Part shown: positions 54,051 to 60,193 of the stretch, piece by piece
How the letters are laid out: each line of letters begins with the position of its first letter
Position numbering within the stretch: position 1 is the first letter of the stretch
Source: Eledone cirrhosa
Taxonomy: Eukaryota
Direction: 5' to 3'
Assembly: GCA_964016885.1 (NCBI GenBank)
Contig: OZ024742.1
Span: 6,262,001-6,326,000 of the forward strand
DNA: 64,000 bases
Program-made: the position numbers and the translations under genes
Notes under the pieces: model-generated
Seen by the model: the letters and a program-made list of their open reading frames with translations, nothing else
Database searches by the model: none
What the model was told of the DNA's origin: nothing

Positions 54051-56486
54051 ATGGAAAAACAATACTTGGGAACCTCTTTAAAGAACATACCAATACCTTC
54101 TAAGGATGACTTCTTACTCCTTATGATTCAAAAAACTAACCAATTTATCAGAAGAGTTAGATGGAGGGCCTACCACTTCGATAAAAAATCTAAATATGCA
54201 GATAGGAAATATATGTATGATTTCAATACTTACCAGAATCCACCACACAACTCTTTGCTTAAAGACTTTGAGAAAGACCTTTTTAATTTAATTAAACACC
54301 TCAAATTTAAGAAGTATAAATCTGTCTTTCAAAAGGACCTTGATTCTACCCTATTGGACCTAAAAAAGTCTAAAAAAATCCATGTCCACTCGGACAAAAC
54401 TGGTAACTTGTATCACATGGATATTGAAGATTATAATGAGTTCATATATAAAGAACTCAGGAAAAATTATAAAAAATCTAATAATGCGTCACTCACCAAC
54501 ATCAACAACAAAACACACAACATAGTAAAAAAACTAAACATTGAAGATAGAACTGAACCCTTGGCATTGAAAAGACCACACTTCAACCTGAAGGATCATA
54601 AATCAAACTTTAACTCAAATCCTTCTATAAGACTTATATGTCCCTCCAAATCTGATATTGGAATAATTAGCAAAACAATTTTGGATAGAGTCATCCCACA
54701 AATAAGAAAACACGTTAATTTACCACTCTGGGAAAACACTTCCCAGGTAATTAACTGGTTTAAAAATATTAGATGTAAATCTTCTGCTTCATTTCTACAA
54801 TTTGATATAGATAATTACTATTCTTCTATATCACCTATACTCCTGAACAAAGCATTGATATTTGCTAAAAATAGATCTAACTTAACTTTGGATGACATTA
54901 ATATTATTACACATGCTAGACTAACACTTATTGAATTTCAGAATGAATACTGGACCAGAAACACATATAGTAATCTATTTGATATTACTATGGGTTCAAG
55001 CGATTCCGCCCAAATTACTGATCTTGTGGGCCTCTTTCTCCTTTTCAACATAAATGCCTCCTTTCCCCACCTTAAAGGTGGTTTATATCGTGATGACTGT
55101 CTTCTTCTTTCCAACAACCTTAGCCTTTCAGAAATAGAAAAAAACAAAAAGCATATTAGAACTTTCCTTAAAGACTATTATAGTCTTCATATTACTTTTG
55201 AAAAAACAAGTAAAGTAGTAAATTTCCTAGATATAACTTTAGACTTAGCTACGGGTATCTACCAACCTTACCATAAACCCAACCAAAACTTACACTACAT
55301 ACACTCACAATCTAATCACCCTAAATCTATCCTTAAAAACCTTGCATATAATATATCACTTAGAATTTCTAACCTTTCTTCTAACCAAGATGTATTTGAT
55401 AAAAATGCGACCTTCTATAACGAAGCTCTAGATAGAAGTGGCCACAAAAATAGATTAGAATATATACCTTCTACTAAAAATACTATAAACATACAACCTA
55501 ATATTACCAACAAACACCAAATGAAAAGTACACACCTAAATGCCACCCACACTATACCCCAAAATACCAACAACTCTTCTAATATAAAGTAGAGTAACTC
55601 TCAAAAAACTACTCATCATACAACTCTAATAAATGTTAATAATAAAACTCCTAATAAACAAGATAAAACACCTAAATCTATAAATCTAACTAAAAATGTG
55701 CGTGGTGAGATCATTAACATTAATCCTCCTAGTAAACATCACGATACAACCTATAAAAATAATAAACAACATAGAAACCGTAATAGACGAGTTACTTGGT
55801 ATAATGCTCCATTTAATTTACAAATTAAGGATAATATTGCTAAAAATTTTTTTTATATCCTAGAGAAAAACTTCCCGCCAAACCACAAATACCATCAAAT
55901 CTTAAATAGGTCTACAGTTAAATTCTCATACTCAACAACCAATAACATAAAACAAAATATAAGTGCCTATAATGCATATAAATGTAAGAATACCATAAGT
56001 ATACCACCAATACATCAAACTAACCATAATATCTCCTCAAATACAGATTTAACGAAAGGTTGTAACTGTACAAACAAAGCAAACTGCCCATTAAAAGGAA
56101 ATTGTCTTGTTAACAACATAGTTTATAAATGTAATGTTAAAACTAAAAATTCTATATGCTCATATATAGGAGCTACTTCTAACAATTTTAAGGTAAGGTT
56201 TAATACCCACAAACATAGTTTTAAAAATGCCGCACTGGCTAATACAACATCTCTAGCAGAAAAAATCAATAGTTATAAAAATAAGAATATAGAATATGAT
56301 ATGACCTGGAGTGTGCTCAAAAGAGCCACCCCTTATCAAAATAATAGAAATGAATGTAGATTATGTTCCCAAGAACTATTTGAAATAATGAAATCTAAGG
56401 ATATCTTATTAAATAAACGACAGGAATTAATTATATCGTGTAATCATAAACTAAGAAAAACATTTAAATATTATAAACCTAATTAA
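54051..56486 (+). CDS. PLE polyprotein: reverse transcriptase + Cys-rich linker + GIY-YIG endonuclease, interrupted by one in-frame TAG at 55590-55592
   Basis: RT motifs SDKTGNLY, LKDHK, FDIDNYYSSI, FDITMGSSDSAQITDLVG, GLYRDD, FLDITL. EN motifs CNC..CPLKGNC, NIVYKC..SYIG, CRLC..E, LLN. The two listed ORFs are in the same frame and no other stop lies between them. Confidence 0.92.
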
Positions 56487-57853: not shown

Positions 57854-57888
<35 letters not shown>

Positions 57889-58267
57889 CGATATGGAATG
57901 AATGGAGGCTGTATTTGTAGGGCCATGTTTGTTTCATTATATATGTTTCAGGGATGTCATATTGACGATGTGTTGTGCCTTCTTCAGACAAAATACAATA
58001 TAGACAGTTTTATAAATAAATAGATTTGACATACCGTTCAACATCGACTTGTATTTGAAAAGTTGATTTGGCAGTATTTTGTCTGAGGAAGGCATAGCAT
58101 ATTGTTAGTGTGATGTCCCTGAGGTATGTATGATGAAATAGATATGGTTTTGTAGATGTAGTTTCCATTTATTTAGTATCGTAAATATACTCCAAATACT
58201 TGTTGAGTGCTTTTATATCAGTTATAAATATTTACTAGTTGTAACCCAACAATTTAAATATAACTTT

Positions 58268-58313
<46 letters not shown>

Positions 58314-59396: not shown

Positions 59397-59430
59397 CTTA
59401 ATATTTTTCTTTTTTCTTTTTCTTTTTATT

Positions 59431-60185
59431 TCTAAATTTATAGATACATTTATAAATAGGCAGTTTGCTGACACCAGTAAATACTGACCTTTCCCCCCCA
59501 CCTACTTTCTGTATCTGGATCTAAATATGTGTGGCAGTGTTTATGTGCGCGCATTAATGTCCATATGCTTATGATAATAGTATATACACATATATGTGTG
59601 TGGGGGTGTGTGTGTGTATGTATGTTCGTGGTTGTGTGTATGTTTATGCGTATACGCGCGTGTGTGTGTGAATGTATGTATATGTGTGAGTATATGAATG
59701 TGTATATATTTATTTTTATATTTATATGTTTATATGCGTATACGTATTTTATCTGTAGATTATAAACATACAGAGACATTAGCCCTGAATTTTTGTATTT
59801 ACATACATCTTTTCGGCATGCGTATACATGTGAACATATATTTTTATGCATATCTGTGAACGAAGTTACTTACATATATACATACACCTAACTGTATAAA
59901 CTTTTTGTGTTTTCATTGGTCAATTTGAACTCTGTTCCCAAACAGACCTGTAATTTTGAATTGTTGTTATTATCAATAAATATATTTCATTATTTCTGAA
60001 GACGGCATATGTATGTGTTGGTATGTATATTTAATTTTGATAGTTTGTATAATTTTGTATAATTTTGTACATAGATCTGTTGAATATGCATGCCAATTCT
60101 AACACATATATATCCTAGAAACGATCGTTAAATAATGAACGTTTTTTGTTTAATATAAGGAACTGTTTCATTCATTATTTTTTTA

Positions 60186-60193
<8 letters not shown>
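59431..60193 (+). repeat. 3' pseudo-LTR
   Basis: Reverse complement of ~52910-53720 with few differences; ends in (TA)n. Confidence 0.92.
59986..60139 (+). ncRNA. Hammerhead ribozyme with extended stem II and palindromic stem III
   Basis: TTCATTATTT-CTGAAGA(59996)-long hairpin-GAAA(60118)-CGATCG-TT^AAATAATGAA. ACGATCGT is a perfect palindrome. Cleavage is predicted after 60129. The base of stem II is non-canonical. Confidence 0.75.

What the first reader, a model, noticed from the sequence alone, without database searches (positions are those of the whole stretch)
58074..58145. De-editing the hairpin resurrects a canonical hammerhead that the edits destroyed
Seen: the right arm reads CTGAGGA-AGG...CCT-GAGG, which is a dead core. 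Taking A-U at every wobble position gives TATTTTGT-CTGAAGA-AGG[CATAACATATTGTTAATATGATATC]CCT-GAAA-TATATA-TA^ATGAAATA. This has an 8-bp stem I (two G-U), an internal TAACA/TGTTA hairpin and a palindromic ATATATAT stem III. Neither present-day arm folds this well, which independently supports the A>G polarity. Inference: an inverted-pLTR junction from a related PLE was captured in the 3' UTR. Antisense pairing plus editing (GAAA>GAGG) silenced its self-cleavage, so the long RNA could still be copied.
Basis: inference. Interest (0 to 1): 0.8.

Follow-up and report, generated by a model that had tools for sequence, protein, structure and literature searches.

The report
RNA editing written into retrotransposon DNA
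A jumping gene carries a short inverted insert from a related jumping gene, and the paired part of that insert is full of A-to-G changes, likely made by the RNA-editing enzyme ADAR and copied back into the genome over several rounds; these changes likely broke the insert's self-cutting ribozyme, probably as a side effect.

Summary
The core observation is confirmed. 58075-58140 is a hammerhead remnant in the right arm of a 108-bp hairpin (76 Watson-Crick, 31 G:T, 0 A:C). The predicted 'de-edited' core exists in 2,760 exact genomic matches, in the pLTR of an autonomous Hydra-clade Penelope-like element (PLE). The hairpin is an ordinary inverted insertion of that donor into a (TA)n tract of a second PLE's 3' UTR. 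Against real donors, 28 of 85 paired As are fixed as G and 0 of 62 unpaired ones; none follows a G. About 42 host copies carry it, and sub-lineages added A>G at 26 more paired sites. An independent insertion at the same host site was edited separately. Two free-standing insertions with the identical junction are unedited. Best reading: ADAR hyper-editing of retrotransposon RNA, fixed by reverse transcription. Corrections: CUGAGGA is not dead (2,812 native donor matches). Selection for silencing is not shown: the duplex had to exist before the editing, and core As were hit no more often than others. Side finding: A17>G is a hot spot in ordinary donor copies.

The parts
58075..58140 (+). Edited type I hammerhead remnant: stem I 58075-82/58133-40, CUGANGA 58083-89, stem II 58090-92/58118-20, GAAA box 58121-24 (now GAGG), palindromic stem III 58124-31, cleavage-site base 58132 (A in donors, G here)
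   Evidence: activity untested
57889..57996 (+). Left arm: inverted copy of the donor pLTR; 17 A>G on the + strand
57997..58073 (+). Unpaired loop (inverted donor sequence); no fixed A>G
58074..58181 (+). Right arm: forward donor pLTR holding the hammerhead; 14 A>G
58182..58270 (+). Unpaired donor 3' tail; no fixed A>G
57861..57888 (.). (TA)n target tract (continues at 58271-58310); empty in most host copies
54051..56486 (+). Host PLE ORF (RT plus C-terminal GIY-YIG, Hydra-clade motifs); one stop at 55590-55592 in this copy
59400..60193 (+). Host 3' pLTR with its own intact hammerhead motif (about 59986-60142; boxes at 59996 and 60118)
52781..53900 (-). Host inverted 5' pLTR (52781-53620) plus short direct pLTR piece; shows no G:T bias against the 3' pLTR (690 WC, 1 G:T, 1 A:C, 9 other of 701)

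Best explanation
A donor Penelope-like element left a 382-bp inverted-plus-forward pLTR fragment in a (TA)n tract of another element's 3' UTR; the host RNA would fold this into a 108-bp duplex that ADAR likely hyper-edited, and reverse transcription likely fixed the inosines as G, with further edits in later copying rounds and loss of the hammerhead probably as a by-product. Shown: the insertion, its donor, the strand, region and context of the A>G changes, their spread among about 42 copies, an independent repeat, and unedited free-standing controls. Inferred: transcription and folding of the host RNA, ADAR as the enzyme, germline or early-embryo timing, loss of cleavage, and that the duplex alone already blocked the ribozyme.
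For: Polarity: 14 of 14 differences from donors in the right arm plus tail are A>G; left arm plus loop shows 17 A>G and 2 others. Duplex dependence: fixed A>G at 28 of 85 paired versus 0 of 62 unpaired As (p=4e-8). Context: 5' T 16/38, A 11/28, C 1/10, G 0/9, matching the upstream-G depletion of ADAR sites (PMC5625713, passages). Later rounds in 42 copies: A>G at 26 of 57 remaining paired As versus 2 of 62 unpaired (p=3e-8) and versus T>C at 6 of 85 paired Ts (p=9e-8); copies carry 0-10 extra edits in partly nested sets that follow host-flank SNP groups. Independent repeat: L153, same (TA)n site, sister host lineage, different donor alleles, 33 G:T versus 1 A:C, again on the host sense strand. 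Controls: five free-standing inverted donor insertions found with edit-tolerant patterns (L150, L151, L154, L199, L200) have 0 G:T in 108 pairs; L199 and L200 have the identical junction. None of 40 sampled other host copies has this hairpin. 4 of 20 long loci hold a 741-828 aa ORF spanning RT and endonuclease motifs.
Against: No RNA data were available, so transcription and inosines were not seen. The presence of an ADAR gene in this genome was not searched. No unedited founder in host context is in the assembly (43 junction matches: 41 at edited host copies, 2 free-standing). Later edits show no upstream-G avoidance (8 of 16 after G) and some recur across host clades (58090, 58137; L011 and L022 are mosaic), so gene conversion or template switching contributes and round counts are rough. 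All three independent hyper-edited events hit A17, which slightly favours a selection component.
Confidence: 0.8

Rival explanations
1. Same ADAR origin, but the edits were selected or required because they silenced the passenger ribozyme and let the full host RNA be copied.
For: All 42 copies have a damaged core or cleavage site. A17 is G in all three independent hyper-edited events. A17>G is enriched in donor copies. G at this position is not cleaved, and inosine slowed an engineered hammerhead about 30-fold (PMC3923133, passages).
Against: Core As are not enriched for edits (6/18 versus 34/105). Context rates alone give about an 84% chance of hitting at least one core A. The duplex is far more stable than the hammerhead before and after editing (-156 and -145 kcal/mol). 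Single metazoan PLE hammerheads showed no detectable monomer cleavage in vitro (PMC4209133).
Confidence: 0.13
2. DNA-level process: C>T deamination of a G:C-rich ancestor, or hairpin/cruciform mutagenesis, made the G:T pairs.
For: A G:T-only pattern on one strand is formally also what C>T would leave.
Against: Real donors carry A:T at these pairs. There is no CpG or other context signal under the C>T model (p=1.0). Free-standing hairpins with the same DNA structure are unedited.
Confidence: 0.02
3. A>G arises from reverse-transcriptase error on structured template, or from another deaminase acting on an RNA:DNA or cDNA intermediate, not from ADAR on double-stranded RNA.
For: The changes appear only on passage through retrotransposition. 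ADAR can edit DNA in heteroduplex model substrates (PMC12925331, passage).
Against: A third of paired As are changed with almost no other substitution, confined to the intramolecular duplex and avoiding 5' G. An RNA:DNA hybrid would cover the loop and tail as well.
Confidence: 0.05

Closest known systems
A-to-G hyper-editing in avian retroviruses (Rous-associated virus, avian leukosis virus), as summarised in PMC12925331 (passage seen)
   Same: ADAR-type A>G clusters in an LTR region and an inverted repeat, with up to about half of the As changed, carried through a reverse-transcribing life cycle.
   Different: Here the element is an endogenous non-viral retrotransposon. The edits are inherited in about 42 genomic copies, accumulate over rounds, recur independently, and hit a ribozyme.
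APOBEC DNA editing of LTR retrotransposons (PMC4866542, passages seen)
   Same: Deaminase footprints fossilised in genomic retroelement copies, strand-biased and context-biased.
   Different: G>A on the sense strand from cDNA editing, not tied to a duplex; that screen found none in 19 invertebrate genomes and filtered against A>G.
ADAR hyper-editing of inverted repeats in animal transcriptomes (PMC5625713, passages seen)
   Same: Long near-perfect duplex, clustered A>G, depletion of upstream G.
   Different: Normally seen only as RNA-versus-DNA differences; here it is in the DNA. A 2016 review states that a role of ADAR editing in Alu subfamily evolution was not determined (PMC4982230, passage).
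Hammerheads in PLE pLTRs and Hydra-clade PLEs (PMC4209133 parts 1-2 of 4 read; PMC8557442 section 11 and passages)
   Same: Type I hammerhead with short palindromic helix III in the pLTR; inverted 5'-truncated copies; (TA)n targets; C-terminal GIY-YIG.
   Different: Nested passenger copy, antisense-paired and edited; the donor has A rather than the usual G at 10.1 and a 3-bp base of helix II.

Membership tests
Type I hammerhead (donor state) | CUGANGA and GAAA boxes with NUH cleavage triplet | tested here: met
   2,760 plus 2,812 exact donor matches; triplet AUA
Type I hammerhead (donor state) | Helices I and II, short palindromic helix III, with covariation | tested here: met
   All stems pair in L062; related families in the fetched loci change helix II together (AGG/CCT, GGA/TCC, AAG/CTT, AAA/TTT); 0 motif hits in 682 kb of block-shuffled loci
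Type I hammerhead (donor state) | Match to an Rfam hammerhead model | tested here: not met
   No hit at gathering score in the window; none among 150 of 174 rows shown at E<=10 on five loci
Type I hammerhead (donor state) | Self-cleavage | not testable with these tools
   Needs an in vitro assay; the hammerhead fold is not the predicted lowest-energy state (-2.6 versus -6.9 kcal/mol)
Type I hammerhead (present-day 58075-58140) | Intact GAAA box and non-G at position 17 | tested here: not met
   GAGG at 58121-24 and G at 58132
Hydra-clade PLE (host and donor) | RWK-like motif, DKT, CxCx5C linker, CxxC and CxH around E/N, C-terminal GIY-YIG | tested here: met
   Read in both translations (RWR rather than RWK) against the description; Pfam gave no significant hit
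Hydra-clade PLE (host and donor) | (TA)n insertion, pLTR with hammerhead, inverted 5' copy | tested here: met
Hydra-clade PLE (host and donor) | Placement in an RT phylogeny with reference PLEs | not tested
   No reference set was fetched
ADAR A-to-I hyper-editing | Clustered A>G confined to a long duplex, on the transcribed strand | tested here: met
   28/85 versus 0/62; both host-embedded hairpins are biased on the host sense strand
ADAR A-to-I hyper-editing | Depletion of upstream G | tested here: met
   0 of 9 in the founding round; not met for later edits (8 of 16)
ADAR A-to-I hyper-editing | Inosine in RNA and dependence on ADAR | not testable with these tools
   Needs RNA reads or a knock-down

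The most novel reading that the evidence does not exclude
ADAR edits PLE template RNA in the germline often enough to drive sequence evolution of these families, and it edits the donor hammerhead selectively at its cleavage-site adenosine, acting as an editing switch on self-cleavage. About 60 otherwise near-unedited donor matches carry A17>G, against 4 with A17>C/T and 6 with A>G at a nearby control A. Hairpins inside PLE RNAs then act as natural recorders of the number of retrotransposition rounds.
Probability: 0.3. Interest if true: 0.82.

Novelty: new variant of a known kind. Interest (0 to 1): 0.68.

Why it matters
It is a clean, internally controlled case of RNA editing becoming heritable DNA change through retrotransposition, which a review lists as undetermined for Alu elements. 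It gives sequence-level support that Hydra-clade PLEs move through a sense RNA that includes the whole 3' UTR, that this RNA meets ADAR in cells that pass insertions on, and that heavy editing does not stop copying. The G:T-only hairpin signature can be screened for in any genome. The A17>G hot spot offers a direct test of whether PLE hammerheads cleave in vivo, which is still open.

Tried and rejected
Rfam scans: no hammerhead hit. Pfam: no significant family for the host ORF. RNA runs: no RNA holder listed, so nothing is concluded on expression; laying contigs only showed presence. C>T polarity rejected. I first read L126/L153 as the undeleted ancestor of the window's hairpin; rejected, because it sits on a sister host lineage with different donor alleles and the short junction forms independently elsewhere. 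Chimeras ending at the donor end: L147 is a later insertion into the (TA)n and L137 a second donor insertion; the host continues in both. One row (L137:5001) was that unedited donor and was dropped before the counts. A mistyped host motif found nothing, and its corrected form proved private to the window copy. Enrichment of edits in the catalytic core: not found. Earlier scan notes: none. Literature: nine full-text searches; the listings showed no report of ADAR edits fixed in PLE copies. Most hits were seen as listings only, subscription papers are not covered, and supplements were not read.

Full report
Observation. The quoted bases are at 58074-58145. They form the right arm of a gapless inverted repeat, 57889-57996 against 58074-58181: 76 Watson-Crick pairs, 31 G:T, 0 A:C and 1 G:A. 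A G:T-only pattern fits either A>G or C>T on the + strand, so polarity needed outside copies.

Donor. A motif from the predicted de-edited core has 2,760 exact matches in the own genome and 0 for the reversed control. These lie in the pLTR of an autonomous element of about 3.8 kb; L061 holds a 748-aa ORF, 46% identical to the host RT region. Host and donor both show RWR, DKT, CxCx5C and the CxxC/CxH motifs described for Hydra-clade PLEs (PMC8557442 section 11); no tree with reference PLEs was made. Against real donors the right arm plus tail differs by 14 A>G and nothing else; the left arm plus loop by 17 A>G and 2 others. Polarity is therefore A>G on the host sense strand. The hammerhead layout is supported by paired helix II variants in related families and by 0 hits in shuffled loci. 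Rfam models do not score it, and cleavage is untested.

Insertion. The 382-bp piece is an inverted pLTR fragment followed by a forward fragment and tail, inside (TA)n. A host 3' UTR motif has 844 matches. None of 40 sampled copies, chosen from those not already known as edited, has this hairpin; most show the empty tract. The exact junction has 43 matches: 41 coincide with edited host copies; the other two (L199, L200) are free-standing insertions with 108 of 108 Watson-Crick pairs. Of 26 other loci tested for inverted donor pairs, 22 have at most 1 G:T, 2 are out of register and 2 gave no pair. Most of these were found with patterns that require an unedited core, so only L150, L151, L154, L199 and L200 are unbiased controls.

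Editing signature. Among the copies, 28 A>G are fixed, all in the arms: 28 of 85 paired versus 0 of 62 unpaired As; by 5' neighbour T 16/38, A 11/28, C 1/10, G 0/9. Upstream-G depletion is the shared ADAR preference across animals (PMC5625713 passages). After dropping one row that was an unedited donor, 42 copies show further A>G at 26 of 57 remaining paired As, against 2 of 62 unpaired As and 6 of 85 T>C. Copies carry 0-10 extra edits. All 8 copies sharing host SNP 57356A have 58097G and 7 have 57893G; L027, L028, L029 and L130 share 9 edits. Against a simple ladder: some sites recur across clades, L011 and L022 are mosaic, and later edits do not avoid 5' G. Four of 20 long loci keep a 741-828 aa ORF; the window copy has one stop.

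Independent events. L153 has a longer donor hairpin at the same host tract, on a sister host lineage (98/96 support with empty-site copies), with 33 G:T and 1 A:C. Its edits overlap the window's at 7 of 11 sites (p=0.03), consistent with shared hot spots. L128/L129 is a free-standing donor whose two arms carry nearly the same 17-18 A>G on the donor sense strand, as expected if the template RNA was edited before copying.

The ribozyme. CUGAGGA is native to 2,812 donor matches. The damaging changes are 58123 and 58124 (GAAA box) and 58132, the cleavage-site base; G is excluded there by the NHH rule (PMC3923133 passages). A later edit at 58086 occurs in 10 copies. Selection for silencing is not shown: core As were edited in 6 of 18 cases versus 34 of 105 others, and chance alone would hit a core A about 84% of the time. 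The arm duplex is -156 kcal/mol unedited and -145 edited, against -2.6 for the hammerhead fold. Editing itself implies the duplex existed first (inference). Single metazoan PLE hammerheads were inactive in vitro (PMC4209133).

Side finding. Forcing G at position 17 gave 100 matches. By my count of that listing, 37 are the edited host family, 3 are the hyper-edited L153 and L128/L129, and 60 are near-unedited donors on several backgrounds. Forcing C or T gave 4; forcing G at 58126 gave 10, of which 6 are near-unedited donors. In the CUGAAGA subtype alone the counts are 18 versus 5 and 2 of about 2,760 (p=0.01 and 0.0004; patterns differ slightly and inverted pairs are not independent). A17 is predicted paired in the donor RNA's lowest-energy fold. 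Selective editing, selection for uncleaved templates, or a few A17G master copies could each explain this; not resolved.

Comparison and verdict. ADAR-type A>G in an inverted repeat is known from avian retroviruses, and APOBEC footprints from vertebrate LTR elements. Nine searches listed no report of ADAR edits inherited in PLE copies, within the library's limits. The host organism was not identified.

Noticed in passing
donor family, position matching window 58132; e.g. L160-L175, L181-L186: A>G at the hammerhead cleavage-site base in about 60 near-unedited donor matches versus 4 for C/T; in L182 and L185 only one of the two arms has it.
   Followed up: partly
L126/L153 (G000:C13, about 18.7405 Mb): Independent donor hairpin at the same host (TA)n site, separately hyper-edited (33 G:T), GAAA intact, A17 changed to G.
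   Followed up: yes
L128:1340-1835: Free-standing donor insertion whose two arms share 17-18 A>G; next to it (about 1120-1290) is an inverted hammerhead pair of another family.
   Followed up: partly
L097 (about 210-550 nt after the host UTR motif): Unedited, nearly perfect 170-bp inverted repeat from a third hammerhead-bearing family in another (TA)n of the host 3' UTR.
   Followed up: partly
L116: Single-orientation donor-like hammerhead fragment at the same host (TA)n site, not hyper-edited.
   Followed up: partly
L137:4950-5200: A second, unedited donor fragment inserted into the tail of an edited copy.
   Followed up: yes
window 59986-60142: Host's own hammerhead motif with a 10-bp helix I, very long helix II insert and palindromic helix III; the palindrome is broken in the inverted 5' copy.
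   Followed up: partly
window 1-43266: 43-kb C/A-rich satellite with 32-37 bp units, giving very long stop-free frames on the + strand.
   Followed up: no
L150, L151, L152, L153: Separate donor insertions share the same inversion apex, and L199, L200 and the window share another: inversion points recur.
   Followed up: partly
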